From: a virus
DNA: 26,981 nucleotides
Virus record (IMG/VR): IMGVR_UViG_3300045988_122866
Span: 1-26,981 of that record
Reading direction: 5' to 3' (one strand)
The translations under genes and the position numbers were made by a program. The notes below the pieces were generated by a model, which was given only the letters and a program-made list of their open reading frames with translations, did no database searches and was not told the origin of the DNA. Numbering within the stretch: position 1 is the stretch's first letter; every line of letters begins with the position of its first letter. Shown in pieces: positions 228 to 14,929 of the stretch.

Positions 228-605
228 TCACTTATTGATGAAAGTATTCAAAAAATCGGCAATTACATCATCATCAGTTCTCTTGACCTTCTTAACCTTT
301 ACTGGCTCACTCTTGGGAAAAAGCACGTCAAGAAGATCGTTAACCCCGGTCATAAGACCGTAAACCTCAGCAAAGATATTCTCCACATCGGACGCGGTCA
401 ACGCAGAATCCTTGTAGCCATTAAGAGCGGCATATTCGTTAATCCGATCGGCAATTTCCTGCGCGAGCGCGGTCTTCCGATCGGCCTGCTTGGTTTCCTT
501 CTCTACCTGCTTAACTGCATCGTTTAGAGACTTAGCCATTTCGTCCGCAATAGCCTGAGCGTCCTCACCATTTTTCAGACGAGCAATAATATCATTCATA
601 TCCAT
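228..605 (-). CDS. Hypothetical small early protein, mostly helical. Start moved to the internal Met (MDMNDII...) because the track's N-terminal extension runs across the promoter.
   Basis: SD AAGAGG 7 nt before the ATG. Consensus promoter about 637-665: -35 TTGACA, 17 bp, -10 TATAAT on the minus strand. TGA stop. Confidence 0.5.
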   Translation of the reverse strand: MDMNDIIARLKNGEDAQAIADEMAKSLNDAVKQVEKETKQADRKTALAQEIADRINEYAALNGYKDSALTASDVENIFAEVYGLMTGVNDLLDVLFPKSEPVKVKKVKRTDDDVIADFLNTFINK

Positions 606-856
606 ATGAATACCTCTTTTCTTATTTTCTATATATATTATATACTTTTTTTTTAAAAATGTCAAGATTTTTTTGGACGAAAACATACGCGTGAAACAAT
701 GTAAGGGCGAAGCAATTTTTAATTAATCATAAAGGCATATGATCCTACGCGGGCTTAAAAAAGTCTTTTTTTACCATTATAACATATTTTTTATAAAAAG
801 TCAATTTTCGGGATTTTTTTGGGCCATATGGAGAGGTGCTAGAAGTATGAAAAATT

Positions 857-990
857 TTGCATATGGGTATACCGATCGGAAACTCGGGCCGGCACGTCCC
901 GCGACGGCCCGGCCATTATACCACATTTTCCGATCGGTGTCAATAGGTAAAATGCACAAAAAAATCAGCAGGTTTTAGTCAACCTGCTGA
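857..990 (-). promoter_or_regulatory. Leader module copy G: minus promoter (-35 about 938-943, -10 TATAAT about 915-920, TGG-extended), GC hairpin about 885-911 at the transcript 5' end, and a terminator hairpin about 966-989 for gene 999..1409
   Basis: Shares the core aaactcgg-[GC hairpin]-ccatt(t)ata(c)caca...tgtcaatag...A-run-terminator with six other copies. The plus-strand promoter is degenerate here. Confidence 0.6.
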
Positions 991-998
991 TTGAATAT

Positions 999-1409
999 TT
1001 ATGCAAGAAATGCACTTACAATTTCATCGAAAACCGTGGGGTTAATGTCCACGTTAAAAAAGCGGTCATTCTTGCGGAACGCTTTGGGGTATCGTCTAAT
1101 CAGTTCCGCACGCAACGCGCTTTCCGCACCCTCGGCGGGATAGTCCCCGCAAGAACGGATTCGATGAACTTCAACGCGCGTGATAGAATACTTTTTCGAG
1201 TATTCACCGATTTCATCACGCAAACGCCCTACAACATCTTTTGCGGAAGTGCCTACCTTGTTAAATTCAAGTTCGTCGTTGTGGTAAAACTTGAAAAAGT
1301 AAACCGCTTGTTCATTTTTCAGATTCTCGCCACAATTAGGCATAAACTCCATAGAAACGGGCGGTCTACCGTCCTTAAATCGGCGTAGCTTAATAGTAAT
1401 TTCTTCCAT
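999..1409 (-). CDS. Hypothetical protein, possibly GIY-YIG/T5orf172-like (VYFFKF...NKVGTSAKDVVGRLRD). Start at ATG 1409.
   Basis: SD GAGAGGA upstream. TAA stop. The 5' UTR contains the conserved stem-loop also found before the exonuclease gene. Confidence 0.5.
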   Translation of the reverse strand: MEEITIKLRRFKDGRPPVSMEFMPNCGENLKNEQAVYFFKFYHNDELEFNKVGTSAKDVVGRLRDEIGEYSKKYSITRVEVHRIRSCGDYPAEGAESALRAELIRRYPKAFRKNDRFFNVDINPTVFDEIVSAFLA

Positions 1410-1430
1410 TGACACAAAATCCTCTCTATT

Positions 1431-1460
1431 GATTGAGGTTTACCATCGTTCTCTCAACCA
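1431..1460 (-). repeat. Conserved 5'-UTR stem-loop element (GGTTGAGAGAACGATGGTAAACCTCAATC on the minus strand), copy 1
   Basis: About 28 nt identical to 4358-4385. Potential 7-bp stem GGUUGAG/CUCAAUC with a 15-nt loop. Sits in the leader of gene 999..1409. Confidence 0.6.
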
Positions 1461-1481
1461 TTATTTTTTGCACTTTTTTGC

Positions 1482-1517
1482 TTGTTTTTGGGTGAAAAAC
1501 CGCATTTTTCAGCGGTT
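1482..1517. terminator. Perfect 14-bp inverted repeat GGGTGAAAAACCGC-N8-GCGGTTTTTCACCC downstream of gene 1533..1940
   Basis: Read directly. T-rich on the plus side. Confidence 0.6.
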
Positions 1518-1532
1518 TTTCACCCTTTTTCA

Positions 1533-1940
1533 TCAATTTTTGGGCTTTCGCTTCTGAATCAGGGTCAATTCGTAGTCATTTTCGCCCACATGAAACGCAA
1601 TCATGCGCTCAATGTTCGTGATTTCCACATTTTCGCACGCATTTTCGCTGTTTTCACGCAAAAAAGTCGCAAGTTCAGCGATAATCGAGCGTTTTGTGGG
1701 ATTTTCCTTGCGCTGTCGCTTCTCAAATTTATAAGCGGTCGGCGCTTTGCGTGTTCCGGTCTTAGAATACTTGTTAGCTTCTTTGAGCTTTTCCGCGGAC
1801 AGGTCAAAGTCCTTGGCGATTCCATGGTCAATGTCATCATCGTCCATGAGAATTTCTTTTGCTTCCTCGGCAGTACAATCTAACTTTTTCATCAGATTAT
1901 CAATCTTTGCCTGAAAGTCCTTTTCACTCATTTTAGGCAT
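1533..1940 (-). CDS. Hypothetical early protein (135 aa)
   Basis: SD AAAGGGGG. Promoter about 1953-1990 (TTGACA-17-TATAAT, minus). TGA stop. Confidence 0.55.
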   Translation of the reverse strand: MPKMSEKDFQAKIDNLMKKLDCTAEEAKEILMDDDDIDHGIAKDFDLSAEKLKEANKYSKTGTRKAPTAYKFEKRQRKENPTKRSIIAELATFLRENSENACENVEITNIERMIAFHVGENDYELTLIQKRKPKN

Positions 1941-2008
1941 TTCTTTTGCCCCCTTTCAAGTATGATTATAACACCGCCGTCAGCAAATGTCAAGAGAAAT
2001 TTTTGGGA

Positions 2009-2040: not shown

Positions 2041-2418
2041 TCAATGCGCCATGCGGAAGTAGGACTTGCGCTTGTCCACAATCTTTTCCACCTTGTTGGC
2101 GTCAATCATCTGGCGCAGAAGAGCGGAAACGCGCTGGTTGGTGAGGTCGCCCAGACCGTCCACATTCTTGATAAGGTCGGTCACGGTATACAGCTTGTCA
2201 GGATTCGCGGACAGCTCAGCAAAGATAATGTCCTTGTAGCCGTCGTTGGCAATCTGATTCGCGGTCGGCTTCTTATCACCGGCGTTCTTGCGAGACAGCA
2301 GGTCGATTTCGTGATTGATAAACTCAACCATAGCGGGGTCAGCCTGAACCTCGGACAGTTTGAGCAGAGCCTCGAAACGGTCGCGCTTGGTGAGCTTCTT
2401 AACAGTAGAAGTAGACAT
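2041..2418 (-). CDS. Winged-helix DNA-binding protein, paralog 1 (…QRVSALLRQMIDANKVEKIVDKRKSYF…)
   Basis: Paralogous to 4471..4845 with identical RBS context (aaaggaattgatactATG). Promoter about 2462-2490 (TTGACA-17-TGGTATACT). TGA stop. Confidence 0.6.
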   Translation of the reverse strand: MSTSTVKKLTKRDRFEALLKLSEVQADPAMVEFINHEIDLLSRKNAGDKKPTANQIANDGYKDIIFAELSANPDKLYTVTDLIKNVDGLGDLTNQRVSALLRQMIDANKVEKIVDKRKSYFRMAH

Positions 2419-2816
2419 AGTATCAATTCCTTTCTTTGGCGGTAGGTCGCTACCCTTTTGATATTATTGAGTATACCACATTTTAGAGGGCTTGTCAAGA
2501 GGTTTCGCAAACTTTTCACACGAATTACTACCCCGACCTGACGGATAATTTATTGTTTGTTGACTCAATCTATTTGTCAGCAAAAATGCTTCGAGGATAG
2601 TTGGTTCAATCAAACTCACTTTCACGTTCAACGTTTGGCTTTACAACGTGGTGTATTATGTTTTCTTCCTATACTTTCTCAAGGTCGCGCGCCCTCGGAT
2701 TTCTTGGGCTACTCCCTCTTGACATTTTCTATTATAACAGATTGCCCACAGATTGCAATTGACAAAATAACCAAATTACGGGAAAAAATTTTCTTCACTT
2801 TTGTGCAACTTTTCTC

Positions 2817-2963
2817 TTGACAAAATTGGCGGGGCGTGGTATAATGGAAAATTCGGACCGCTGCGTACGCTGGCGGTCCGCCCATTTTATCACAAAAATC
2901 CGCGTTTGTCAATAGTCAAAATAGACAAAAAAAACTGCCCATTTTTGGGCAGTTTTTTATTTT
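2817..2963. promoter_or_regulatory. Leader module copy A with convergent promoters. Plus promoter: TTGACA about 2817-2822, N17, TGGTATAAT about 2840-2845. GC hairpin 2854-2880 (cggaccgc/gcggtccg). Minus promoter: -10 about 2884-2889, -35 about 2907-2912. Bidirectional terminator 2935-2952 (ctgccca/tgggcag) between an A-run and a T-run.
   Basis: Both promoters have exact 17-bp spacing. The hairpin sits at about +1 of both transcripts. The overlapping track ORFs 2557..2820 and 2709..2912 are artefacts. Confidence 0.7.
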
Positions 2964-3192
2964 AGTCCAGCAGGTTAATTTCGCCGGGAATTGCGAAAGA
3001 ATCAGCGTCCAGCGTGGAATTGTAGTCCTCGGTAAAGAGTTCAATCATTCCACACTCCATGACGTAATTCTGAACCGACCGCCGAACGTTGTTCCAAAGG
3101 TCAGTTTTTCGGCTTTCCGCGCGGGCTTCCTGTATCTGGATAATGAGTTCGTCCAGTTTCTCGGCGGTCATGTAATTAAAATCCAAATCCAT
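2962..3192 (-). CDS. Hypothetical small protein (start at ATG, M3 of the track ORF)
   Basis: SD AAGGGGGAG. TAA stop. Closely follows CDS 3195..3473 as a two-gene unit. Confidence 0.5.
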   Translation of the reverse strand: MDLDFNYMTAEKLDELIIQIQEARAESRKTDLWNNVRRSVQNYVMECGMIELFTEDYNSTLDADSFAIPGEINLLD

Positions 3193-3194
3193 TT

Positions 3195-3473
3195 TCAAAA
3201 CTCCCCCTTAATGGCTTCTTTCCACGCGTCCCAGCCGAATTTTTCCTTGCTATCCAGTTCCTTGCCAATGTCTTTTGCGGTCAGCAGGTCAAGCTCGTCC
3301 GCAATTTCATCTTCAAAGTTTACCCAAGAGTCGTAGGTCTGAATAATGAAAACTTCATCAGCTTCAAAGACGCCACCGCACTCGGCGCAGATAATATAGT
3401 CATGGTCGATTAAAATACCCATGTGAGGGTCATTGTCATCAGGGACTACAAAAAGGACTTGTTTAGCGTTCAT
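3195..3473 (-). CDS. Hypothetical small CxxC-containing protein. Start at the third ATG (MNAKQVLF…).
   Basis: SD AAGAGGTG 7 nt upstream. The first two ATGs lie at or upstream of the predicted transcription start of promoter 3503-3531. TGA stop. Confidence 0.5.
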   Translation of the reverse strand: MNAKQVLFVVPDDNDPHMGILIDHDYIICAECGGVFEADEVFIIQTYDSWVNFEDEIADELDLLTAKDIGKELDSKEKFGWDAWKEAIKGEF

Positions 3474-3502: not shown

Positions 3503-3541
3503 ATTATACCATAGGGAATAGGACTTGTCAAGCCCTATTCC
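3503..3541 (-). promoter_or_regulatory. Consensus promoter (TTGACA-17-TGGTATAAT) with the -35 inside a 9-bp inverted repeat GGGAATAGG…CCTATTCCC
   Basis: Read directly. The inverted repeat also lies just downstream of the stop of the exonuclease gene. Confidence 0.65.
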
Positions 3542-3551: not shown

Positions 3552-4328
3552 TTAGCTCATGTTTATCATGGGATTTTCCTTAATGTTTCGCATGAGCGCG
3601 CGCTGAAACTCGGTAGGCTTGGGGCGTTCCACCGTGGGAGTTTTGAAAAGGGACTTTTCCATTTCCTTGTGCTGTCGGACACAATAGCGCAGAATCTCAA
3701 CTTCAATGAGAACATCTTCTAATCCTGTGTGGGATTCATCAAAGCTGTCTTCACCGCTGATAAAGCGATAGAGAATTTCTGCGGTGAAACGGAGCTGTCC
3801 GTTCTTGGTCTTGTAGCCATTCTTTTCGCAATAGTCGCGGTAAGTGGGCATTTTGCCCATAACCTGTCGCGCCATTTTCAACGTGTCCCAAACTTCAAGG
3901 CCGTAGGGGAAGAAATAGCGATACTTGCTTTTCGTGTCCCATCTTTGCGCGTTGTTGCAGGCGTTAAGGTCGAACCGCATATTGTGAGCGCAGACAAAAG
4001 AGCAGTTATAACGCTCGACACATTCGCAGAACGCAAGACGAATTTCGTAAAGGTCAGCCATAATGCGAGTGCCGTTTTGAATGTCCTCAATGTAGCGGGG
4101 AATCTTATCGGCATAGTATGTGGACTGCATAAGGTCGCGCTCGTAGCAGAAAATGTCGCGATTCACAAAAGAATGAGTTTCATAAACATTTCCCTTGGAA
4201 TCAATGACCGCCCACCCAAAGTCGTAGGGAAGCACATTTGACATATCCAGCTTATCGCCGTCCTGAATGGTGTTTGCAGTTTCCGTGTCCAGCATAATAC
4301 CGTAGTTCCTGCGCCTATCAATACCCAT
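3552..4328 (-). CDS. DnaQ-like DEDDh 3'-5' exonuclease
   Basis: Motifs MLDTETA (Exo I), CAHNMRFDLN (Exo II) and HTGLEDV (Exo III with His). SD GGAGACG. TAA stop. Confidence 0.75.
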   Translation of the reverse strand: MGIDRRRNYGIMLDTETANTIQDGDKLDMSNVLPYDFGWAVIDSKGNVYETHSFVNRDIFCYERDLMQSTYYADKIPRYIEDIQNGTRIMADLYEIRLAFCECVERYNCSFVCAHNMRFDLNACNNAQRWDTKSKYRYFFPYGLEVWDTLKMARQVMGKMPTYRDYCEKNGYKTKNGQLRFTAEILYRFISGEDSFDESHTGLEDVLIEVEILRYCVRQHKEMEKSLFKTPTVERPKPTEFQRALMRNIKENPMINMS

Positions 4329-4385: not shown

Positions 4386-4435
4386 AAATATAGTATAGCA
4401 CTTTGCTATTGGTTTGTCAATAGTTTTTTTGTAGG

Positions 4436-4470: not shown

Positions 4471-4845
4471 TTACGCGAGGGAGAAGTAGGACTTGCGCTT
4501 GTCAACCGTCTTGACAACCGTGCCTGCATCAATCATCTGACGCAGAAGAGCAGAAACGCGCTGGTTGGAATACTCCGCAAGCTCGGGAACGCCCTTGATG
4601 AGGTCGGTCACCGTATACAGCTTGTCAAGGTTGGCGGTCATCTCGTCCAGAATGACCTGCTTCACGGCGTCATTCTCCATCTGCTTGGCCGTGGGCTTCT
4701 TGTCGCCCGCGTTCTTCTTGGCGAGCAGTTCAATCTCATGCTCGATGAACGCCACCATATCAGGATTTGCCTGAACCTCGCTCATTTTGAGCAGAGCCTC
4801 GAAACGGTCGCGCTTAGTGAGCTTCTTAGTAGTAGAAGTAGCCAT
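4471..4845 (-). CDS. Winged-helix DNA-binding protein, paralog 2. Start at M18 (MATSTTKKLTKRDRF…).
   Basis: N-terminus and RBS match paralog 2041..2418. Promoter about 4880-4915 (TTGACA-18-TATAAT). TAA stop. Confidence 0.6.
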   Translation of the reverse strand: MATSTTKKLTKRDRFEALLKMSEVQANPDMVAFIEHEIELLAKKNAGDKKPTAKQMENDAVKQVILDEMTANLDKLYTVTDLIKGVPELAEYSNQRVSALLRQMIDAGTVVKTVDKRKSYFSLA

Positions 4846-5345
4846 AGTATCAATTCCTTTCTGGTTTTTAAGACTGTCCTTGTCTATGGTAGTCATTATA
4901 TCATAGGCGGGAGTAGGTTGTCAATAGGTTTTTGCAATTTTTTTTAGGGGCGGTCGCGAGGTTTATTACTATACATCTTGTTTATACCTACCTTTATCTA
5001 TACTCTTAAACCAATTCAAAATTTACTAAGCCATTAGTTTTTAAGGCGGTGGACGAGCATCAGAAATCATCTTGTTTTTACCTCTCTCATTTGATGTATT
5101 CATTATACCCTACGTAGAACGGTTTGTCAAGGGGTTTTTCAAACTTTTTTTGAAAGTTTGTTCGGCACGCCACGCTTGGAACATTCCGTCGGATTTTGGT
5201 ATAATGGTCAAAGGAACTGCCTTTCCGCAGGTCTTACTCTTTCCTCCTGACATTATGTAGTATAGCAGATTGGTAATAATTTGTCTATTGATAAAATAAC
5301 CAAATAACGGGAAAAAATAAAATTGAAATTTGTACGAAATTTCTC

Positions 5346-5490
5346 TTGACAAAAATGCTGGCAGGGTGTATAATGGTAAATTCCGGTCGCAACATGCGTT
5401 AGCGACCGGCCAATTTTAGCACATTCAGATGGTTTTGTCAATAGTCAAAGTAAACAAAAAAATCTCCCCATTTTTGGGGAGATTTTCTTT
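5346..5490. promoter_or_regulatory. Leader module copy B. Plus promoter: TTGACA about 5346-5351, N17, TATAAT about 5369-5374. Hairpin 5383-5409 (ccggtcgc/gcgaccgg). Minus promoter: -10 about 5413-5418, -35 about 5436-5441. Terminator 5462-5483 (atctcccc/ggggagat).
   Basis: Same architecture as copy A. The hairpin stem sequence differs but pairing is preserved. Confidence 0.7.
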
Positions 5491-5747
5491 TAGCCAATCA
5501 CATTGACTTCGGTTTTGACAGGCGTTACCATCTTGTCGCGCGAGAACTCGCGAACCTGACCCGTTTCAAGATTCACCGCGTAGCAATACTGCGAACCTCT
5601 CGACCGGACAAACGGCGTGTTGTTGTTGCTGTCAATTTTGAGATACATTCCCATACCGACCCCATTGGAGCGCGGAGTGGTGAACGTGCCACCGCTGAGA
5701 ATGTTGATAATTTGAAGCTGACCCTTAGTGCCAAAATTTACTTTCAT
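5490..5747 (-). CDS. Hypothetical small protein (start at MKVNFGT…)
   Basis: SD AAGAGGGA. TAA stop. Closely follows CDS 5762..6076. Confidence 0.5.
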   Translation of the reverse strand: MKVNFGTKGQLQIINILSGGTFTTPRSNGVGMGMYLKIDSNNNTPFVRSRGSQYCYAVNLETGQVREFSRDKMVTPVKTEVNVIG

Positions 5748-5761
5748 TTTTATTCCCTCTT

Positions 5762-6076
5762 TCAAAATTCTTCTAAAAAGTGAATCGGCTTATGGTTTGG
5801 TCTGAAAAATGCCATTCCCTCGGTATAAAGAGAATTAAACAAATCTGCGGACACTTCAAACCATTCCGTGCCGCTAATGCGATTGCCTAACTCACTTAAA
5901 GTCAGATGACAAGAATTTTCCATGTCTCGACTTCCGGCGCAAGTGCTACGCATTATCGCTTTCGGATTATGGCTATAATAGCTTTTACGACGCTTTGCAA
6001 GGTTTTTAGTGCCGTCAGAATAGCCAACTTTAACCAAATGGCTATTGGTTAAATTATCCATCATCAAATACAGCAT
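5762..6076 (-). CDS. T5orf172/GIY-YIG-like domain protein
   Basis: LVKVGYSDGTKNLAKRRKSY … EWFEVS resembles the T5orf172 (MUG113) signature. SD GAGGT. TGA stop. Confidence 0.5.
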   Translation of the reverse strand: MLYLMMDNLTNSHLVKVGYSDGTKNLAKRRKSYYSHNPKAIMRSTCAGSRDMENSCHLTLSELGNRISGTEWFEVSADLFNSLYTEGMAFFRPNHKPIHFLEEF

Positions 6077-6232
6077 TTTTACCTCACAGCAGATGGGTAT
6101 TAACCCATTCTGCGGTCACAAGTCCGATTTCCTTAGAGACAACCGTTTCATAGCGGTAATTACCGCCATCAGTTCGTCCGGTCACTTTGGCGAGAACGCC
6201 AAGAGTAAGCCAAAAGTAAGGCATCATTTTTA

Positions 6233-6439
6233 TCACCCCTTATTGCCGACCGAGAAGATGGACTGTAAAAGCACGAGAATAATCCAAATTGCGAGTGCCA
6301 ACTTCCACGAAAATACGATGACGAAAGTGCCGATTGCGGTGATACCAAGAGCGGGAAGAAGCCAACAGAGAAGCCAAACCAAACCAGAGGTAAGCAGGAA
6401 CGAAACAGCGAGAGACAGCAGAATCAAAAGAACAATCAT
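6233..6439 (-). CDS. Small membrane protein (two predicted TM helices)
   Basis: Hydrophobic throughout. Promoter with hairpin-embedded -35 at about 6455-6502. TGA stop. Confidence 0.5.
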   Translation of the reverse strand: MIVLLILLSLAVSFLLTSGLVWLLCWLLPALGITAIGTFVIVFSWKLALAIWIILVLLQSIFSVGNKG

Positions 6440-7558: not shown

Positions 7559-7564
7559 ACTATT

Positions 7565-8691: not shown

Positions 8692-8755
8692 TTTAATTTT
8701 CCCCTTTCATTTAATACGTTAAGTATAGCAGAATAAAAGGCTTTTGTCAAGCCCT

Positions 8756-9229
8756 TTATTCAAGATTTTTGCTTTCCGCAACAAAATATTTTGCTTCATA
8801 CTGATTGGCGATAGCCTTGACTTTTGCGCTTTCCTTTTGGGTCGCGCAGTAGAAATTGAAAAGCGTATGTTTATCGCTCAATTCAATATAAGAGTGTGGG
8901 ACATCATGTAAGTCAAAGTCAATGGTATTAGTGTATTTTGTTGGGACAGTCAGCTCGACTTTCCATAACCGGTCTTTGCGGGCTTTCTCTTCAATCCACT
9001 TGACAAAGTAGACGCCTACGAAATTACAAACAGCAGTAATAGCCATTTTCAACCAGATAGGCATACCGTCCGCGGAAGTCAGCACAATCACATAGGAATA
9101 AAAACCATAAGTGATAGCGTTGATAAGAGACGCGCTAACTTTTCCGCCGTTGACCGTCAAGATGCTTTTGATAGTTGACAGAATCACATTCACCGCCGTG
9201 CAAAGCGCGAACAGAAGAATTGTATTCAT
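8756..9229 (-). CDS. Membrane protein (157 aa, hydrophobic N-terminal half)
   Basis: Track ORF with several predicted TM segments. TAA stop inside a hairpin-embedded -35 element. Confidence 0.5.
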   Translation of the reverse strand: MNTILLFALCTAVNVILSTIKSILTVNGGKVSASLINAITYGFYSYVIVLTSADGMPIWLKMAITAVCNFVGVYFVKWIEEKARKDRLWKVELTVPTKYTNTIDFDLHDVPHSYIELSDKHTLFNFYCATQKESAKVKAIANQYEAKYFVAESKNLE

Positions 9230-9474
9230 TCTACCACCTCAATATCGCAGTAAATACAGTCGGTAATATCGACGTATTCCTCAAAGCTCATTCTTTTATC
9301 GTCGCGATGGGTGAAGTCGATATAGGCATCTTCGCCATGAAGATTATTCTCTTCGTTATATGCGCGGGTGGCATTGTCAAAAGCCTTAATAGCGTCAGCT
9401 TCATTATAAACTACCACTTCTTTGACTTCGGGAGCATCATACCAAATAGTATATTTCTTTTTCATTATTATCAC
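9226..9474 (-). CDS. Hypothetical protein (82 aa)
   Basis: Track ORF. The 4-nt overlap with 8756..9229 suggests coupling. TGA stop. Confidence 0.5.
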   Translation of the reverse strand: MIIMKKKYTIWYDAPEVKEVVVYNEADAIKAFDNATRAYNEENNLHGEDAYIDFTHRDDKRMSFEEYVDITDCIYCDIEVVE

Positions 9475-9528
9475 CCTTTCCTTTTTCTATTATAATAATA
9501 TCATATTATAATAGAAATGTCAATAGAG

Positions 9529-9693
9529 AGTTTTTAATTTACTCTTTTAATTTTTCTAATAGGTCATCAACACATTCGTAGCTGATACTTCTGCGGTCGC
9601 ACTCGTTGGACAAAGGACAACACGCGCAGTCATTAAAGGTTTCCGTCCAAGCGCGCAACCAGTCAATCAAGCGCAAAGTATTAACTTCCTCAT
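9529..9693 (-). CDS. Micro-ORF, about 54 aa, Cys-rich (…NDCACCPLSNECDRRSISYEC…). Its ATG overlaps the TGA of 9690..10037. Coordinates +/-3.
   Basis: ATGA overlap with the upstream stop. Below the track's size cutoff. Confidence 0.3.
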
Positions 9694-10037
9694 ACATTGT
9701 TATCATTCTCCTTTACTCGGACAAAAAAGACCTTGTTATAGATTTTTGTTGCTTTAAGGTCAATCCAGAAATACACGTTTCCGCATACTCGATAGATTTT
9801 ACAAGTCTCTCCGCTAACCTTTTTGACTTCCTCAAATTTCTCTGGTGTTGTAGGGTGGAAAACCGTCAGTTTGAGAAATATGCAATAGAAAGCCAAAGGA
9901 ACGAAGCCGATAATCATAGCAATCCATGCGAGAACATCAGTTAAAGTGTTTTCCCATTCACACCACTCATCGGTGATTGTAGCGAACGCAATACCCACGC
10001 AAAACGCGAGAATCAACCAATACCATGCAACCATCAT
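9690..10037 (-). CDS. Membrane protein (115 aa)
   Basis: Two or three hydrophobic helices. First gene downstream of module D's minus promoter. TGA stop. Confidence 0.5.
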   Translation of the reverse strand: MMVAWYWLILAFCVGIAFATITDEWCEWENTLTDVLAWIAMIIGFVPLAFYCIFLKLTVFHPTTPEKFEEVKKVSGETCKIYRVCGNVYFWIDLKATKIYNKVFFVRVKENDNNV

Positions 10038-10141
10038 TTTAGTCCCCCTTTATTTGTTGTATACATCTTACCACATTATAGGATTTTTGTCTATTGGCAT
10101 TTTACACAAAAATTCGTGCGAAAATTTGTTGAACTTACCTC

Positions 10142-10265
10142 TTGACAAAAAACTCGGCGCGCCACAGTCGTTCGCGCGCCGACGATTTTATCACATTCAA
10201 GGAACTTTGTCAATAGTCAAAACAAATAAAAAATTCAGGCGAGATTTGGTTATCTCGCCTGAAAA
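10142..10265 (-). promoter_or_regulatory. Leader module copy D. Hairpin 10156-10180 (ggcgcgcc…gcgcgcc). Minus promoter: -10 about 10185-10190, -35 about 10208-10213. Terminator 10237-10260 (aggcgagat/atctcgcct). The plus-strand -10 is deleted.
   Basis: A TTGACA lies on the plus strand at about 10142, but no -10 follows at 17 bp. The rest of the core is conserved. Confidence 0.6.
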
Positions 10266-10897: not shown

Positions 10898-11014
10898 TTA
10901 GTTCCCCTTTCTCAGACTCTCTTCAATTTCTTCCCATTCGCTTCTGAACAATTCAATGTTCGTATTGCCGATACACTCTAAAATAGCTTTAATCTGTTCC
11001 TCAGTAAATTTCAT
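10898..11014 (-). CDS. Micro-ORF, 38 aa (MKFTEEQIKAILECIGNTNIELFRSEWEEIEESLRKGN). Coordinates +/-1.
   Basis: SD AAAGGGGAA. Promoter with hairpin-embedded -35 at about 11046-11078. Confidence 0.4.
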   Translation of the reverse strand: MKFTEEQIKAILECIGNTNIELFRSEWEEIEESLRKGN

Positions 11015-11092
11015 TTTTTTTATTCCCCTTTCCTTTGATACATTAAGTATAGCAGAAAAAGGGCTTTTTGTCAAGCCCTTTTCTTATTTTTT

Positions 11093-11455
11093 TCAATTTT
11101 CTTTTCTAATGGAGTAGTAGCTCCGACTTCCCTTTTTGGTGTAGGTCAACTTTCTGTCAATCCAGCAAAGATGACCACAATACCACGAAATAGTGGCGCA
11201 AGAATATTCCTTGCCAGTCTCACGGTAAAGAATAAACTGAATTTCCGTAGGGCGCAGGGGCTTTTCCGCCTTTGAGAGAACATCGAGCATCATGTTTTTC
11301 ATCATGGTGTTGCGGATTTCCTGTTTCAGTTTCCGCGCTTCCTGGGCTTCTTCATACTGTGAGCAAGCTCTCTCCGCGTGGATTTCATCAATTCCGGTGA
11401 AAGTGCCATTGTCAAGGAATTTCTTCAAAAGGCTATAAGTTTCAAAGTTCATCAT
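11093..11455 (-). CDS. Hypothetical protein with a C-terminal winged-helix-like segment
   Basis: …LRPTEIQFILYRETGKEYSCATISWYCGHLCWIDRKLTYTKKGSRSYYSI looks like a wHTH. TGA stop. Confidence 0.45.
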   Translation of the reverse strand: MMNFETYSLLKKFLDNGTFTGIDEIHAERACSQYEEAQEARKLKQEIRNTMMKNMMLDVLSKAEKPLRPTEIQFILYRETGKEYSCATISWYCGHLCWIDRKLTYTKKGSRSYYSIRKEN

Positions 11456-11555
11456 GTCAGTATTCCCTTTCCTTTATTGTGCTTTTATTATAGCATCTGC
11501 TTTTGAATTTGTCAAGAAGTTTTTTGGAAAAAGAGGGAAAAATTTTCCCTCTTTT

Positions 11556-11825
11556 TTACCACTTTACAGTAAGAATACCGTTTGAGTAAGAAGTGGTATA
11601 GCCATAATTCCGCAAAAGATTTTTCAGAGCTTCTTTTACAGCTTCATCTTCAATGGCAACGAGACAGCGAGACAGATAATTTTCGCCCTTTTCCGCGCGG
11701 TCTTCAATATCTTTCATCAGATTTTCTTCGAGATAGGCACGGGCCGTAGCAGTATCTTCTGCGCGCTTGGCGTCGCGAGTTTCCTTGGCGATAGTTGCTA
11801 TTTCGTGAGCATATTTAATTTCCAT
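11556..11825 (-). CDS. Hypothetical protein (89 aa)
   Basis: Track ORF. Promoter with hairpin-embedded -35 at about 11845-11889. TAA stop. Confidence 0.5.
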   Translation of the reverse strand: MEIKYAHEIATIAKETRDAKRAEDTATARAYLEENLMKDIEDRAEKGENYLSRCLVAIEDEAVKEALKNLLRNYGYTTSYSNGILTVKW

Positions 11826-11903
11826 GGTGTTTCTCCCTTTCCTTTATTGTATCTTTATTGTAGCATATAGGGCTTGTTTTGTCAAGCCCTATATACATTT
11901 TTT

Positions 11904-12212
11904 TTAACAGTAAGCCAGATTCCCGCGCGCCCAGCCATATACGCTGATTTGATTGCACGCCTTGCCAATTTCAAGCGCCTGCTTCTTGGTCTGCACCCTC
12001 TTGGACTTGTCAACATAATAGATGCCGTTCGCAAGCCATACGCCGCAGTTTCCGCCGAAGTCCTTAACCGCATTGATAGCTTCGCGTGCGGTCTTACATT
12101 CAACGCCGTTGGTAGCGACTTGCCAGCCGGACTTGTAGTTGACTTTCTTGCCATATTTGAGAGTCAGGCCGTCATTTTCAGCGAGCTTGCGAATAGAACG
12201 AATGTTAATCAT
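11904..12212 (-). CDS. Hypothetical protein (about 102 aa, start MINIRSIRKL…)
   Basis: SD AAAGGGAT. First gene downstream of module E's minus promoter. TAA stop. Confidence 0.5.
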   Translation of the reverse strand: MINIRSIRKLAENDGLTLKYGKKVNYKSGWQVATNGVECKTAREAINAVKDFGGNCGVWLANGIYYVDKSKRVQTKKQALEIGKACNQISVYGWARGNLAYC

Positions 12213-12341
12213 GTTGTTATCCCTTTCCGGTTTGGTAGGTTTTCCTTCCCTTACTGTGATTATAGTATAGCACCGATTCGGGATTCTGTCTATTGACATT
12301 ATGCACAAACTTTCGCCATAAAAATTTGTGCAATCCGCCTA

Positions 12342-12470
12342 TTGACAAAAACTCGGCGCGCCAGGTCCGTTCGCGCGCCGGCCGATTATACTACAAAGTT
12401 TTGGGACTGTCAATAGACAAAATGACAAAAAAATTCGGCAGGATTTTGTGTATCCTGCCGAATTTTTTTT
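12342..12470 (-). promoter_or_regulatory. Leader module copy E. Hairpin 12355-12379 (ggcgcgcc…gcgcgcc). Minus promoter: -10 TATAAT about 12385-12390, -35 about 12408-12413. Terminator 12434-12462 (11-bp stem ttcggcaggat/atcctgccgaa plus a T8 run).
   Basis: Same core as copy D. The terminator directly follows the TAA of 12469..12663. Confidence 0.6.
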
Positions 12471-12663
12471 AATCTTTCCAACTCTCGATGACTTCACCGG
12501 TCATTGCGTCGATAATGTCAACCGAGAGGACGTTGTCCGCGTCCATAAACTTCTGACCGAGGGCGTATGCATTTTCCTGTCCCGCGACAGACACTTCATA
12601 GCGATAATGCCCCATGTCGCCCGCCTTGTAGTTGTAGTAGTTAACAGAAACAATAAATAACAT
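12469..12663 (-). CDS. Hypothetical small protein (start MLFIVSVNYY…)
   Basis: SD AAAGGGGAT. Promoter at about 12680-12720. TAA stop. Confidence 0.5.
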   Translation of the reverse strand: MLFIVSVNYYNYKAGDMGHYRYEVSVAGQENAYALGQKFMDADNVLSVDIIDAMTGEVIESWKD

Positions 12664-12748
12664 TTGGTTTATCCCCTTTCTTTTTATACTCTTATTATAC
12701 CATAGATTCAAGATTTGTCAAGGACTTTTTTCAAGAAAGAAGCGGGGC

Positions 12749-12940
12749 TTAGTAGCCCCGCTTTTCCAAACGGTCCAGGCGTCCAGCAAGGATTCTCGCA
12801 AGAACGGGCTTTGTCCATTTCATCAGACTATCAGCAGTGCTTTGGCAGTTTGCCCAAACCTCCCAAGTTTGGCCCTCGCGAATAATGTCAGCCTTGCGCA
12901 TCTTCATGAACTTCTCGTAATACATTTCGAAAGTATCCAT
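12749..12940 (-). CDS. Hypothetical small protein (63 aa)
   Basis: Track ORF. TAA stop inside hairpin gcggggct-tagt-agccccgc. Confidence 0.5.
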   Translation of the reverse strand: MDTFEMYYEKFMKMRKADIIREGQTWEVWANCQSTADSLMKWTKPVLARILAGRLDRLEKRGY

Positions 12941-13048
12941 AACTAACCTTTCTGGTGTTTGGGATTTTCCTTTCCCTTTCTGATATTATAATACCACAGA
13001 CCGCAAAGAATGTCAAGTGTTTTTTTTCAAAAAAAAAAGAAAAGTTTT

Positions 13049-13171
13049 TCAACTTCTCTTTCTACGGCGAATCGCTCTCTTTACGCGGTGCTCCACGTAT
13101 TCGATGAGCGCACCCGCGCCGATAACACCAACATAGATAGCGAGAAGAACAAGACCATCGTGAGTAGACAT
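13049..13171 (-). CDS. Micro-ORF, about 40 aa, with one TM helix and a basic tail (MSTHDGLVLLAIYVGVIGAGALIEYVEHRVKRAIRRRKRS). Coordinates +/-2.
   Basis: SD AAGAGGTAAATCAA. Promoter with hairpin-embedded -35 at about 13205-13239. The overlapping plus-strand track ORF 13010..13432 is an artefact. Confidence 0.35.
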   Translation of the reverse strand: MSTHDGLVLLAIYVGVIGAGALIEYVEHRVKRAIRRRKRS

Positions 13172-13251
13172 TTGATTTACCTCTTTCTTTCTTTTGATGT
13201 ATTCATTATACCAAACAAAGGGGCTTTTGTCAAGCCCCTTTTTTATTTTTT

Positions 13252-13530
13252 TTACAGTTCTTTTCCAACCTTAACAAATACGATTTTCTCCGGCAAGACT
13301 TCGATGCCCTTAATGCCCGCTTCATTGACTTCCTTGTTCGTGCAAGTCCACCCAAACTCATCTAATGCGTCCCATTCACCGTTCCCACTGGGAGTCCAAG
13401 TGTTGAATCCGTCATCAATCATCACGTCATAGCCCTTGCTGTAAGTCTCCATAATCTGTTCGATAGTCATTTGTTGTATTCCCCTTTCCTTTGATGATAC
13501 TATTATAGCATTTCGGGATAGGAATGTCAA
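13252..13530 (-). CDS. Hypothetical protein (92 aa)
   Basis: Track ORF. Promoter at about 13495-13530 (TGTCAAG … TATAAT). TAA stop. Confidence 0.5.
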   Translation of the reverse strand: MTFLSRNAIIVSSKERGIQQMTIEQIMETYSKGYDVMIDDGFNTWTPSGNGEWDALDEFGWTCTNKEVNEAGIKGIEVLPEKIVFVKVGKEL

Positions 13531-13653
13531 GTGGTTTTTGGCAAAAAATGGAAAAAATTTTGCTTTAACGCTTTACTGTGGTAAAGTTCGGGCTGGGACG
13601 CCCTACACGCGCACAACGGCGTAAGAGAAAGAGCGGGAAGCCCGCTCCCGCCC

Positions 13654-13863
13654 TTAATACATTTCGCTACTGGGTTCAACTGTGAAATACTCAACATTCC
13701 GCAAGTCGAGCTTGCCATAGGACTTGTCATTATACATTGTAGCACCTGTCGCAAGTAAGTCATTCATCTTACCTGCAATCTCCATAGCGCGCTGTTCCTC
13801 GAACGCCTGCTGGAAGAGATAGCCCTGACCGCCCTTAGTGTAATAAACAATGCCGTAAATCAT
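13654..13863 (-). CDS. Hypothetical protein (69 aa)
   Basis: SD AAAGGGGAA. Terminator gagcggg-aag-cccgctc follows the TAA. Overlapping track ORF 13527..13763 rejected. Confidence 0.5.
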   Translation of the reverse strand: MIYGIVYYTKGGQGYLFQQAFEEQRAMEIAGKMNDLLATGATMYNDKSYGKLDLRNVEYFTVEPSSEMY

Positions 13864-13993
13864 TTTTCATTCCCCTTTCCTTTTGTGATTATAGAATACC
13901 ACATTCTAACTGATTTGTCAAGACCTTTTTGCAAAAAATCTTTGTTAATTTTTTAACAATCTACGCCGTTAGGAAGGGAGCATTACTGCTCCC

Positions 13994-14326
13994 TTATTCT
14001 GCGTAAAGACTCATCAATTCATTTATCTTATCAATGGCTTCATCAATGTCATCGAGGTAGTTGTCTGCCAACATACTTGCATGGCTGGCTTCCTCGTAGT
14101 CATCATACGCGTCGCTGAGTTCCTGTGTGCCAAACTTGTCTGCCTGTTCGAGGGCGTCTACCTCGTGCCATGCCCTCGACATCTCACCACGCTTAACCTG
14201 ACAGTCGCGGAACGCCTGCTTGCTTTCGTTCATTAACCGTTCCTTTTCAGCTTTGAGAGCCTTGTAAAAATCCTGATTAGTCATTTGAGTATTCCCCTTT
14301 CTTATTGTATCTACATTGTAGCACAT
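13994..14326 (-). CDS. Hypothetical acidic protein (110 aa)
   Basis: Track ORF. Promoter at about 14340-14375. Terminator gggagca-ttac-tgctccc after the TAA. Confidence 0.5.
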   Translation of the reverse strand: MCYNVDTIRKGNTQMTNQDFYKALKAEKERLMNESKQAFRDCQVKRGEMSRAWHEVDALEQADKFGTQELSDAYDDYEEASHASMLADNYLDDIDEAIDKINELMSLYAE

Positions 14327-14413
14327 TACCGCGCATTTGTCAAGACCTTTTTTACTCTTCTCTGCTTGTTAATTTTTTAACAATCTTCGCCGATCCGCAA
14401 GAAAGAGAGAGAC

Positions 14414-14779
14414 TTAATAAGCCTCTCTCCATACCTTAATGATTGTATCATCTTCCACAGTATCAGTGTCATTGTCGTTAATCCACAAGAGCAAGAAGTC
14501 GTTGTCATCAATGTTGAGTGCTTCCACGTCCCACAGGTTGCCCTGCTCATCAATGAGCGTCAGGGTATCGCCCTCGCGTGCGTAGACCTCTGCGCCGACG
14601 AAACGAATACTTCCGCGTTCCGTGCCTGCACCGCACCAATTCTCAATGACCGAGAGGTCGTAGGACTGGGGCGCTTCCTCACAGGCTTCCGCGGTTGTGT
14701 GGTCGTGGAGTGGAGTGAAAAGAGATGCGCAGAGAATGATGCCAAGAGCGATGGTGATGATTTTGGAAACGTTTTTCAT
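14414..14779 (-). CDS. Secreted or lipoprotein-like protein with an N-terminal signal peptide
   Basis: MKNVSKIITIALGIILCASLF… then an acidic domain. Promoter at about 14795-14845 (TTGACA-17-TATACT). TAA stop. Confidence 0.5.
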   Translation of the reverse strand: MKNVSKIITIALGIILCASLFTPLHDHTTAEACEEAPQSYDLSVIENWCGAGTERGSIRFVGAEVYAREGDTLTLIDEQGNLWDVEALNIDDNDFLLLWINDNDTDTVEDDTIIKVWREAY

Positions 14780-14929
14780 TTTGATTTACCTCTTTCTTTT
14801 TGATGATACAAGTATAGCACATGGCTACTGGATTGTCAATAGTCATTTTGCACAAATGTGATGGCGTGGTTTCGGGTATTTTGACGATTGTGCATTATGA
14901 CGAAGTTTCGGCGAGAAATTTGTGCAAAC

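What the first reader, a model, noticed from the sequence alone, without database searches (positions are those of the whole stretch)
228..14850. Almost every early gene is an insulated monocistronic cassette with a near-perfect extended -10 promoter
I could read more than 25 minus-strand promoters of the form TTGACA-N17(18)-TGnTATAAT/TATACT. Examples lie near 637-665, 1953-1990, 2462-2490, 3503-3531, 4387-4415, 4880-4915, 5105-5130, 6455-6502, 7380-7418, 11046-11078, 13205-13239, 13495-13530 and 14795-14845. Each is followed by a strong SD and a short ORF, and each ORF by its own hairpin terminator. This density of consensus sigma70 promoters resembles the phage T5 early/pre-early region and implies massive host-RNAP capture for a set of tiny takeover or anti-defence proteins.
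Basis: seen in the sequence. Interest (0 to 1): 0.6.

Follow-up and report, generated by a model that had tools for sequence, protein, structure and literature searches.

The report
Phage early-gene promoter cassette array
This is the roughly 15-kb early-gene block of a large gut phage that infects Gram-positive bacteria; about 35 small genes of mostly unknown function are driven by some 30 near-perfect host-type promoters, a layout already known from phages SPO1, T5 and T4-type phages but not described for this phage group.

Summary
In window 228-14850 the minus strand carries 28 sites matching TTGACA-N16-18-TATAAT at 11/12 or better, 25 of them with the TG extension. The plus strand has 3, and shuffled sequence gives 0.17. 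In 17 of 22 standard cassettes the ATG lies 29-33 nt after the -10, behind a GAAAGGGG-type ribosome-binding site.

"Almost every gene monocistronic" is overstated. About 35 genes form about 25 transcription units, and 11 genes sit in small operons. Six of the consensus promoters precede a GC hairpin, not an ORF.

The window comes from a roughly 190-kb, TAG-recoded gut siphovirus. Its cultured relatives infect Enterococcus, and Enterococcus phage EF1 has the same promoter array. [quoted passage not shown] As with PeSLs, mosaic breakpoints among relatives fall at cassette borders.

Each combines a terminator, a fixed-geometry GC hairpin and up to three promoters. One of these is a perfect antisense promoter facing the hairpin. 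The function of these elements is unknown.

Verdict: a real feature of a known kind, with one unexplained conserved component.

The parts
228..14850 (-). Early-gene module: about 35 genes in about 25 transcription units. GC 0.42-0.46, flanked by ~30% GC DNA.
14811..14839 (-). Promoter TTGACA-17-TATACT with TG; drives the 121-aa gene 14779..14414. It is the downstream (P_C-type) promoter of junction element 7.
14315..14343 (-). Standard promoter (TACAAT, TG); drives gene 14284..13994.
13893..13921 (-). Standard promoter (TATTCT, TG); drives gene 13863..13654.
13502..13530 (-). Standard promoter, 12/12 with TG; drives gene 13470..13252.
13205..13233 (-). Standard promoter, 12/12 with TG; drives gene 13171..13049. 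Its -35 is the loop of terminator hairpin 13241-13217.
12988..13016 (-). Standard promoter (TATTAT, TG); drives gene 12940..12749.
12694..12721 (-). Standard promoter, 12/12, 16-nt spacer, TG; drives gene 12663..12469.
11857..11885 (-). Standard promoter (TACAAT, TG); drives gene 11825..11556. Its -35 lies in the loop of hairpin 11896-11863.
11487..11515 (-). Standard promoter, 12/12 with TG; drives gene 11455..11093.
11046..11074 (-). Standard promoter (TATACT, TG); drives gene 11014..10898. Its -35 lies in the loop of hairpin 11083-11056.
9495..9523 (-). Standard promoter (TATTAT, TG); drives operon 9465..8756.
8722..8750 (-). Standard promoter (TATACT, TG); drives the AbrB/MazE-like gene 8691..8239. 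Its -35 lies in the loop of hairpin 8761-8731.
7390..7418 (-). Standard promoter (TATACT, TG); drives gene 7358..7065.
7028..7056 (-). Standard promoter, 12/12 with TG; drives the HAD phosphatase-like gene 6995..6495.
6470..6498 (-). Standard promoter, 12/12 with TG; drives the 4-gene operon 6439..5490. Its -35 lies in the loop of hairpin 6503-6486 and contains the TGA stop of the upstream gene.
5102..5130 (-). Perfect promoter followed only by mini-ORFs 5070..5041 (MISDARPPP*) and 4976..4944 (MYSNKPRDRP*).
4895..4924 (-). Standard promoter, 12/12, 18-nt spacer, TG; drives gene 4845..4471.
4392..4420 (-). Standard promoter (TATACT, TG); drives the exonuclease-like gene 4328..3552 through a 63-nt leader.
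3503..3531 (-). Standard promoter, 12/12 with TG; drives operon 3473..2962. Its -35 lies in the loop of hairpin 3543-3513.
2470..2498 (-). Standard promoter (TATACT, TG); drives gene 2418..2041.
1965..1993 (-). Standard promoter, 12/12 with TG; drives gene 1940..1533.
637..665 (-). Standard promoter, 12/12, no TG; drives the last gene of the module, 605..228.
12385..12413 (-). Junction element 6, upstream sense promoter (P_B); followed at once by the GC hairpin, with no ORF.
10185..10213 (-). Junction element 5, P_B.
8153..8181 (-). Junction element 4, P_B.
5413..5441 (-). Junction element 3, P_B.
2884..2912 (-). Junction element 2, P_B.
915..943 (-). Junction element 1, P_B.
2817..2845 (+). 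Antisense promoter P_rev, 12/12 with TG; faces P_B 2912 across the hairpin.
5346..5374 (+). Antisense promoter P_rev, 12/12; faces P_B 5441.
8088..8116 (+). Antisense promoter P_rev, 12/12 with TG; faces P_B 8181.
12264..12292 (-). Junction promoter P_C (TGTCAATAGACA-17-TATACT); drives gene 12212..11904.
10065..10093 (-). Junction promoter P_C; drives operon 10037..9539.
8001..8029 (-). Junction promoter P_C; drives operon 7968..7427.
5259..5287 (-). Junction promoter P_C; no convincing ORF before P5130.
2731..2758 (-). Junction promoter P_C (TTGCAA-16-TATAAT); followed by ~230 nt without an ORF.
776..804 (-). Junction promoter P_C (TTGACT-17-TATAAT); followed by ~110 nt without an ORF.
14949..14975 (.). 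GC hairpin, 8-bp stem and 11-nt 'loop' (junction element 7, which has no P_B).
12354..12380 (.). GC hairpin 8/11/8.
10154..10182 (.). GC hairpin 9/11/9.
8124..8150 (.). GC hairpin 8/11/8, between convergent promoters.
5383..5409 (.). GC hairpin 8/11/8, between convergent promoters.
2854..2880 (.). GC hairpin 8/11/8, between convergent promoters.
885..911 (.). GC hairpin 7/13/7.
12427..12469 (.). Bidirectional terminator that opens junction element 6.
10234..10263 (-). Terminator that opens junction element 5.
8199..8234 (.). Bidirectional terminator that opens junction element 4.
5456..5489 (-). Terminator that opens junction element 3.
2929..2958 (.). Bidirectional terminator that opens junction element 2.
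963..992 (.). Bidirectional terminator that opens junction element 1.
127..160 (-). Strong terminator that closes the module.

Best explanation
Window 228-14850 is the early (host-takeover-type) module of a large TAG-recoded siphovirus of a Gram-positive (Bacillota) gut bacterium.

Proposed mechanism. After DNA entry, the host sigma-A RNA polymerase binds about 30 co-oriented promoters. These carry every strong-promoter signal: an upstream A-tract, TTGACA, a 17-bp spacer, TG or TRTG, and TATAAT. Each standard cassette then supplies a leader of about 25 nt with an extended Shine-Dalgarno sequence and an ATG, followed by a short gene or a 2-4-gene operon, and usually a hairpin terminator.

In six cassettes the terminator is fused into the next promoter. 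The -35 hexamer forms the hairpin loop and the T-tract lies in the promoter spacer. This packs terminator, promoter, leader and ribosome site into 55-80 nt.

The likely outcome is simultaneous, individually dosed, high-level expression of about 35 mostly orphan small proteins. This happens before the phage switches to its AT-rich late genes, which contain TAG codons. Because all cassettes share the same signals at their borders, they also act as natural exchange points, and relatives differ by whole-cassette swaps.

Shown by sequence: the signals, their spacing, strand coherence, conservation and the breakpoints. Inferred: host-polymerase dependence, early timing, promoter strength and protein roles.
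For: - Promoter excess and strand bias: 28 on minus, 3 on plus, 0.17 in shuffles.
- Only functional positions are conserved across 20 cassettes (A-tract, -35, TG, -10, SD); the spacer is free. This points to selection on function, not recent copying.
- The -10-to-ATG distance is 29-33 nt in 17 of 22 cassettes.
- TG occurs in 30 of 33 promoters and TRTG in 18 of 33. By my own knowledge, TRTG is the '-16 region' typical of Gram-positive promoters.
- Cultured relatives found by tblastn infect Enterococcus, Bacillus and Mammaliicoccus.
- Enterococcus phage EF1 has the same array and the same -35-in-loop terminators.
- The array is kept in IMG/VR relatives down to 46-62% protein identity.
- Early genes never use TAG: 21 TAA stops, 14 TGA stops, 0 TAG, GC3 0.51. 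Late genes carry 2-9 in-frame TAG each, with GC3 0.16-0.31.
- Gene content is small orphans.
- Terminators.
- Breakpoints against 14 relatives: 29 of 48 clusters are intergenic where 30% is expected (p=1e-5), and most others lie within ~10 nt of a gene end. One relative carries an extra unit bounded by junction elements.
Against: - There are no expression data and no identified host.
- A match to consensus does not measure strength; fully consensus promoters can escape slowly.
- Nine consensus promoters do not drive an ordinary ORF.
- Four to six cassettes lack a convincing terminator, so insulation is incomplete.
- Breakpoints at gene borders are also what selection for intact genes alone would produce. 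They are consistent with cassette-mediated recombination but do not prove it.
Confidence: 0.8

Rival explanations
1. The shared cassette is maintained mainly as a portable recombination unit, with PeSL-like shuffling and mini-circles; high expression is secondary.
For: - Breakpoints are enriched at cassette borders.
- Hot spots lie at the ~250-bp junction elements, which are 72-76% identical to each other.
- One relative has an extra unit flanked by junction elements.
- PeSLs provide a precedent (PMC2839356).
Against: - Standard cassettes share only the short functional motifs; spacers are unrelated. That leaves little homology for recombination.
- The fixed promoter-to-ATG spacing and the SD are expression features.
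- This view is not exclusive of the best explanation.
Confidence: 0.25
2. The promoters serve a phage-modified or phage-encoded polymerase or sigma factor, so these are middle genes rather than immediate-early host-polymerase genes.
For: Two upstream contexts exist. Standard cassettes have an A-tract, whereas junction promoters have TTTGTGCA and a TTGTCAATAGNCAA 14-mer. These could mark different temporal classes.
Against: - The sites match the housekeeping consensus perfectly, including TG.
- Phage-specific sigma factors such as SPO1 gp28 use different motifs (my own knowledge).
- No polymerase or sigma gene lies in the window.
Confidence: 0.07
3. The pattern is a non-functional repeat family, an assembly chimera (suggested by the GC jump at ~15 kb) or an engineered construct.
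For: - GC jumps abruptly from 0.30 to 0.45 at ~15.1 kb.
- The layout resembles a synthetic insulated-cassette design.
Against: - The same junction and array occur in more than 20 independent metagenome contigs from several samples that hold both the exonuclease and capsid genes.
- They also occur in cultured Enterococcus phages.
- Spacers are not conserved.
- The strand bias is strict.
Confidence: 0.02
4. For the junction elements only: they are ordinary bidirectional terminators that happen to be flanked by promoters, with no function of their own.
For: - The hairpin is GC-rich and followed by a short T-run on both strands.
- Loop sequence is not conserved.
Against: - A real terminator already sits 60-70 nt upstream in each element.
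- The geometry is fixed: 8-bp stem plus 11 nt.
- This hairpin type is absent from 1.5 Mb of late-region DNA of relatives.
- The antisense promoter plus hairpin is conserved, including spacer and initial transcribed sequence, in relatives at 52-54% identity and in EF1.
- A 14-mer overlaps all three -35 boxes: 16 hits against 1.15 expected.
Confidence: 0.3

Closest known systems
PeSL (promoter-early stem-loop) cassettes of T4-type phages RB49/phi1, T4/PST, KVP40/nt-1 (PMC2839356, PMC4122927)
   Same: - A sigma-70-consensus promoter with an AT-rich upstream region.
- A stem-loop terminator at a variable position, including overlapping the -35 or just after the -10.
- SD and ATG at the 3' end, so about 100 bp of shared signals.
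- Dense arrays in front of orphan genes (8 in 5 kb in RB49).
- Indels and replacements between relatives that end in the cassettes.
   Different: - Unrelated phage lineage: a Bacillota siphovirus, not a Gram-negative T4-type myovirus.
- Gram-positive signals (TRTG, extended SD).
- A single contiguous 15-kb module of distinct GC content instead of several hyperplastic regions.
- A second tier of ~250-bp junction elements with an antisense promoter.
- Mini-circle formation was not tested.
SPO1 host-takeover module (Bacillus subtilis phage; Stewart et al. 1998, cited in PMC6873191)
   Same: - Same host phylum and the same polymerase (sigma-A).
- 12.4 kb with 26 small early genes in short operons.
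- Promoters and ribosome sites typical of highly expressed genes.
- Products are mostly orphans, several of them toxic to the host.
   Different: - No sequence homology was found.
- The SPO1 module lies in the terminal redundancy; the position of this module relative to the genome ends is unknown.
- The density of near-perfect promoters and the terminator-in-promoter fusion are not, to my knowledge, described for SPO1.
T5 pre-early and early promoters (P_N25, P_25, P_26, P_28 and others; Gentz & Bujard 1985, my own knowledge; PMC7472727 for the T5 gene classes)
   Same: Many very strong host-polymerase promoters drive early phage genes.
   Different: - The host is Gram-negative and there is no homology.
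- T5 promoters owe much of their strength to AT-rich flanks and downstream regions rather than to 12/12 hexamers with TG.
- T5 pre-early genes are defined by first-step DNA transfer, which cannot be assessed here.
Convergent-promoter or antisense units such as lambda OOP RNA and P22 sar/ant (my own knowledge)
   Same: A strong promoter faces the main transcription direction. It makes a short hairpin-ended RNA at the 3' side of an upstream unit.
   Different: - Here there are three to eight copies per early module.
- The RNA sequence is not conserved, only its shape.
- In the window the predicted RNA does not overlap a coding region.

Membership tests
Host sigma-70/sigma-A-dependent phage early promoter array | -35 TTGACA and -10 TATAAT with a 17+/-1 bp spacer, far above chance and on the coding strand | tested here: met
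   28 on minus, 3 on plus, 0.17 in shuffles at >=11/12
Host sigma-70/sigma-A-dependent phage early promoter array | Extended -10 (TG / TRTG) as in Gram-positive strong promoters | tested here: met
   TG in 30 of 33, TRTG in 18 of 33
Host sigma-70/sigma-A-dependent phage early promoter array | Transcripts start at these sites early in infection and need the host polymerase | not testable with these tools
   No expression data. Cultured relatives exist.
PeSL cassettes | Consensus promoter plus AT-rich upstream region plus SD/ATG within about 100 bp | tested here: met
   Consensus profile; spacing of 29-33 nt in 17 of 22
PeSL cassettes | Associated stem-loop at a variable position, including overlap with the promoter boxes | tested here: met
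   Six hairpins have the -35 as their loop; others lie upstream; six lie just after the -10
PeSL cassettes | Preferentially flank orphan genes in a plastic region, with indels between relatives ending in the cassettes | tested here: met
   30 of 35 genes have no annotated function. 29 of 48 breakpoint clusters are intergenic, p=1e-5. Selection for intact genes could give the same pattern.
PeSL cassettes | Recombination between cassettes yields mini-circles | not testable with these tools
   Needs inverse PCR or long reads from infected cells
PeSL cassettes | Belongs to T4-type phages (common descent of the elements) | tested here: not met
   Relatives are Enterococcus/Bacillus-type siphoviruses. 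The element is analogous, not homologous.
SPO1-type host-takeover module | Compact block of small early genes with strong promoters and ribosome sites | tested here: met
   description in PMC6873191
SPO1-type host-takeover module | Products shut off host processes or are toxic | not testable with these tools
   No homologues of SPO1 gp37-60 were detected by Pfam or PHROGs
SPO1/T5-type terminal or first-injected location | Module lies in the terminal repeat or at the first-entering end | tested here: inconclusive
   Several IMG/VR contigs end near window 15.1-15.25 kb or inside the module. Repeats there can break assemblies.
Integron gene cassettes | Promoterless cassettes with attC sites and an integrase | tested here: not met
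   Each cassette has its own promoter, and there is no integrase in the window
MITE / Correia-like repeat (junction elements) | Terminal inverted repeats, target duplication, insertion in either orientation | tested here: not met
   The 14-mer occurs in inverted orientation at both ends. However, all seven copies share one orientation and one context: after a terminator and before a gene.
Rfam RNA families | Match to any curated RNA model | tested here: not met
   No hit at gathering score; only chance-level hits at E<=1

The most novel reading that the evidence does not exclude
The seven junction elements may be a new kind of phage regulatory and exchange cassette.

Its conserved core is an antisense-facing consensus promoter that fires straight into a GC hairpin of fixed shape: an 8-bp stem, a small internal loop, 2 bp and a tetraloop. 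In three elements a sense promoter opposes it, with 36-38 bp between the two -10 hexamers. A third promoter backs it, and a 14-bp operator-like motif covers all three -35 boxes.

On this reading the unit would do one of two things. It could act as an RNA-polymerase collision or roadblock insulator and switch that divides the early module into exchangeable blocks of 2-2.7 kb. Or it could produce a multi-copy family of small hairpin RNAs with a trans function, for example decoys.
Probability: 0.2. Interest if true: 0.65.

Novelty: new variant of a known kind. Interest (0 to 1): 0.45.

Why it matters
- It extends the promoter-plus-stem-loop cassette design, known from T4-type coliphages and in spirit from SPO1 and T5, to a widespread group of large gut phages of Gram-positive bacteria. 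These phages also recode TAG.
- It gives a sequence-only handle on three things in uncultured phages. The first is the host phylum: sigma-A and SD signals argue against Bacteroidota. The second is the early/late boundary, marked by promoter density, absence of TAG and a GC3 shift from 0.51 to about 0.2. The third is a ready list of about 35 candidate takeover or anti-defence proteins.
- The compact terminator-in-promoter fusions are natural, evolution-tested insulated expression parts for Gram-positive hosts.
- The junction elements with antisense promoters are conserved as far as cultured Enterococcus phages, so their unknown function can be tested directly.

Tried and rejected
- Megablast of both halves of the window against 50,697 phage records found nothing. 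Relatives were found only at protein level and in IMG/VR.
- Rfam at gathering score and at E<=1 gave nothing credible for the hairpins or the ORF-less promoter-driven stretches. There are no tRNAs in the window.
- I tried to decide which strand's RNA the GC hairpin serves from G.T versus A.C mismatches. Only 9 of 93 hairpins have any mismatch, with no bias.
- The covariation count shows compensatory changes at 4 of 8 stem pairs. The input had been selected for pairing, so the 99.7% paired figure is circular.
- The ~230-nt stretch after promoter 2758 folds no better than shuffles (z = -1.09), so no structured RNA is claimed.
- PDB sequence search of the paralogous 125-aa proteins found nothing.
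- The apparent tRNA-like segments upstream of antisense units in relative L019 were not confirmed by ARAGORN and were dropped.
- Contig ends were examined for evidence of a terminal location of the module. The result is inconclusive.
- Integron, MITE, chimera and synthetic-construct readings were considered and rejected (see membership test and rivals).

Full report
OBSERVATION. The promoter array is real. The built-in scan of 1-15000 found 77 promoter-like sites against 27.3 +/- 4.7 in shuffles. Sixteen are perfect 12/12 matches, 13 of them on the minus strand. My own count in 228-14850 gave 28 minus-strand sites at >=11/12, 25 of them with the TG extension. The plus strand has 3, and 200 dinucleotide shuffles gave 0.17 (maximum 2). 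The adjacent late region has none with TG.

THE STANDARD CASSETTE. Aligning 20 cassettes on the -35 shows which positions are conserved: an A-tract at -46 to -41, C at -36, TTGACAaa, TG, TATAaT, then a(t/c)A.aAaA.GAAAGGGG and the ATG. The 17-nt spacer is unconstrained. This is the signature of selection on function, not of recently copied repeats. The -10-to-ATG distance is 29-33 nt in 17 of 22 cassettes. TG is present in 30 of 33 promoters, and the longer TRTG in 18 of 33. By my own knowledge (Voskuil & Chambliss 1998), TRTG is characteristic of Gram-positive promoters. The GAAAGG(G/A)GG ribosome site matches the extended anti-SD of Bacillota.

GENES AND OPERONS. A simple SD-guided tiling gives 35 minus-strand genes. 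About 24 have their own promoter. Eleven follow another gene with -8 to +14 nt between them, or with no promoter in the gap (10822.., 10472.., 9697.., 9229.., 7708.., 7558.., 6227.., 6076.., 5747.., 3198.., 1415..). 'Almost every gene monocistronic' is therefore overstated; there are about 25 transcription units. Median protein length is 89 aa. Fifteen proteins have pI below 4.7 and eight have a hydrophobic segment. Only five have a family assignment: a DnaQ-like exonuclease, a HAD phosphatase or nucleotidase, an AbrB/MazE-fold protein, a T5orf172 protein and a few PHROGs of unknown function.

TERMINATORS. About 20 of 25 units end in a hairpin. In six cases the hairpin loop is the -35 hexamer of the next promoter and its T-tract lies in that promoter's spacer: 13241-13217, 11896-11863, 11083-11056, 8761-8731, 6503-6486 and 3543-3513. 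This fits stop codon, terminator, promoter, leader and SD into 55-80 nt. At 6498 the upstream TGA stop lies inside TTGACA. Promoters 7418, 7056, 4924 and 665 have no convincing hairpin upstream, so insulation is not universal.

Six consensus promoters (943, 2912, 5441, 8181, 10213, 12413) are followed not by an ORF but, 2-4 nt after the -10, by a GC hairpin. They belong to seven copies of a 230-260-bp composite. The copies align over their whole length and are 72-76% identical to each other. The parts of the composite, in order, are:
- the terminator of the upstream gene, often bidirectional;
- a sense promoter, P_B;
- a hairpin with a 7-9-bp GC stem and an 11-nt 'loop' (13 nt in one copy, 885-911);
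- in three copies (2817, 5346, 8088, plus strand), a perfect antisense promoter, P_rev, whose -10 lies only 36-38 bp from that of P_B and points back into the hairpin;
- about 60 nt of spacer;
- a third promoter, P_C (TGTCAATAGACA-17-TATACT), which usually drives the next gene.

The 14-mer TTGTCAATAGNCAA occurs 16 times where 1.15 are expected. Fifteen hits lie three per element in five elements, and one marks junction element 7. Each hit overlaps a -35 box.

This hairpin type occurs seven times in 15 kb here. In 1.5 Mb of late-region DNA from relatives it occurs only nine times, and eight of those are the orthologue of the copy at 14949-14975. Among relatives I found 93 distinct promoter-adjacent hairpins. 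Of these, 84 have perfect 8/8 pairing, stem differences are compensatory, and loop sequences change quickly. So the shape is selected, not the sequence. The 11 nt usually fold further into a 2+1 internal loop, 2 bp and a tetraloop.

The predicted P_rev RNA contains the whole hairpin followed by CCAUUUUAU, and about 70 nt later it meets the upstream gene's terminator. That would give RNAs of roughly 40 or 115 nt (inference). A P_B start at +7 would fall inside the 5' arm of the hairpin (inference).

The antisense unit is conserved well beyond the close relatives. The upstream TTGCACAAA/TTTGTGCAA repeat, TTGACAAAA, a spacer ending GGCGGnGTGG, TATAAT, GGAAATTT and a GC hairpin recur 7-8 times per module in relatives with only 52-54% exonuclease identity. 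Two further copies occur in Enterococcus phage EF1, in reduced form: TTGACA-17-TAAAAT, a GC hairpin and an A-rich tail. Its function is unknown. The options I consider are:
- an insulator working by polymerase collision or roadblock;
- a regulated three-promoter switch;
- a 5' stabiliser;
- a family of small RNAs;
- a long repeat used for recombination.

CONTEXT. The plus-strand genes from 16.3 kb onward are structural. PHROG 4088 matches the capsid-like protein, which is 40% identical to that of Enterococcus phages. These genes read through 2-11 in-frame TAG codons each, and no other stop type is affected. The phage is therefore TAG-recoded, like the gut phage phAss-1 (50% capsid identity). 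The phAss-1 description does not mention promoters (PMC10607447). The 35 early genes use TAA 21 times, TGA 14 times and TAG never. Their GC3 is 0.51, against 0.16-0.31 for the late genes. Relatives in IMG/VR are contigs of up to about 200 kb. In them the promoter-dense, GC-richer block has the same extent and ends where the window's module ends. The same contigs carry both the exonuclease and the capsid genes, so the GC jump is not a chimera. Cultured relatives infect Enterococcus, Bacillus and Mammaliicoccus. The phAss-1 paper suggests Clostridia as hosts. Canonical TTGACA/TATAAT promoters with strong SD sequences also argue for a Bacillota host and against Bacteroidota (my own knowledge of Bacteroidota promoters). 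Enterococcus phage EF1 shows about 15 such promoters in 5 kb upstream of its exonuclease gene, each before a small ORF, with -35-in-loop terminators at 5381, 7937, 8700 and 9477.

MOSAICISM. BLAST of the module against 14 close relatives gives 48 breakpoint clusters. Twenty-nine are intergenic where 30% is expected (binomial p=1e-5). Most of the rest lie within about 10 nt of a gene end. The most recurrent breakpoints sit in the junction elements: 12434/12403, 10233/10206, 8236/8199, 2739/2713 and 915/876. Relative L002 carries an extra ~1.9-kb unit between two junction-type sequences, at the position where the window has one. This is what cassette-mediated exchange predicts. Selection for intact genes would produce similar borders, so the mechanism remains an inference.

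MECHANISM AND RIVALS. The best-supported reading (confidence 0.8) is a host-polymerase-driven early module. Many independent high-output cassettes let each small protein be made at once and be dosed separately, and they keep read-through low. The recombination role is probably an added property rather than an alternative. Use by a phage sigma factor or a modified polymerase is unlikely given the perfect housekeeping consensus. Artefact, chimera and synthetic origin are excluded by the independent contigs and the cultured relatives.

COMPARISON WITH KNOWN SYSTEMS. The closest match in function is PeSL: a sigma-70 consensus promoter with an AT-rich upstream region, a stem-loop in any of five positions including over the -35 or just after the -10, SD and ATG, about 100 bp in all, dense in front of orphan genes and marking indel borders (PMC2839356, PMC4122927). 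All sequence-level PeSL features are met here. Common descent is not, and mini-circles are untested. The SPO1 host-takeover module is the closest match in biology: 12.4 kb, 26 small early genes, strong promoters and ribosome sites, and the same host phylum (PMC6873191). I know of no described counterpart of the junction elements in any of these systems.

VERDICT. The feature is real and statistically overwhelming, and in kind it is already understood. It is new for this phage group and carries an extra, conserved and unexplained component. Interest 0.45; novelty: new variant of a known kind.

Noticed in passing
window 16348-24002 (+): Late structural genes are open only if TAG is read through, with 2-11 in-frame TAG per gene and no in-frame TAA or TGA. 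This indicates a TAG-recoded (code-15-like) phage. No suppressor tRNA lies in the window.
   Followed up: partly
window 228-14850 vs 16354-26743: There is a sharp codon-usage split within one genome. Early genes have GC 0.45 and GC3 0.51 and never use TAG as a stop (21 TAA, 14 TGA). Late genes have GC 0.28-0.41 and GC3 0.16-0.31. Relatives show the same split.
   Followed up: partly
window 5070-5041 and 4976-4944 (-): Perfect promoter 5130 drives only two mini-ORFs with near-identical ribosome sites, MISDARPPP* and MYSNKPRDRP*. Both end in proline-rich motifs of the kind that stall ribosomes, so they may be leader peptides ahead of gene 4845..4471.
   Followed up: no
window 1431-1459 and 4354-4382 (-): An identical 29-nt element, GGTTGAGAGAACGATGGTAAACCTCAATC (a hairpin with a 15-nt loop), lies in the 5' leaders of two unrelated genes: the exonuclease 4328.. 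and the 138-aa gene 1415... A 23-nt core of it is exactly conserved at one or both sites in 14 relatives. It may be a shared translational operator.
   Followed up: partly
window 1-58 and 15153-15306: AT-rich tandem repeats (26 bp x2.2 and 38 bp x3.8) sit just outside both edges of the GC-rich module. The cumulative GC-skew minimum also lies at 15-16 kb. Several IMG/VR contigs end at about 15.1-15.25 kb. This could be an origin, a genome end or an assembly-break site.
   Followed up: partly
window 2041-2418 and 4471-4845 (-): These are paralogous 125- and 124-aa basic proteins (72% identical) with the same 45-nt leader. The C-terminus looks like a winged helix (my reading of the sequence). They have no Pfam or PDB match. 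They are candidate regulators, for example for the 14-mer in the junction elements.
   Followed up: partly
window 16190-16218 (-) and 16301-16329 (+): A divergent pair of consensus promoters lies in the AT-rich region outside the finding. The plus-strand one (12/12) drives the first TAG-containing gene, 16354... The minus-strand one drives a 36-aa membrane peptide and two AT-rich genes upstream of the module.
   Followed up: no
window 2500-2725 and 666-776 (-): Promoters 2758 and 804 are followed by ~230 and ~110 nt without an ORF or an Rfam match. The longer stretch folds no better than shuffles (z = -1.09).
   Followed up: partly
window 6493-6498 (-): The TGA stop codon of the HAD-like gene 6995..6495 lies inside the -35 hexamer TTGACA of the next promoter. 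That hexamer is also the loop of the gene's own terminator hairpin.
   Followed up: yes
L103 (Enterococcus phage EF1) 9700-10500: This non-coding region carries many copies of ATAAAATAACA in both orientations and several TTGTGAA-N4-TTCACAA palindromes that resemble Rex boxes, around one antisense promoter-hairpin unit. It may be an origin or a regulatory hub in the cultured relative.
   Followed up: no
window 5762-6076 (-): A T5orf172 (GIY-YIG-related) protein is encoded inside the 4-gene operon 6439..5490. Proteins of this type are often linked to mobile or homing functions, which could bear on the mosaicism.
   Followed up: no
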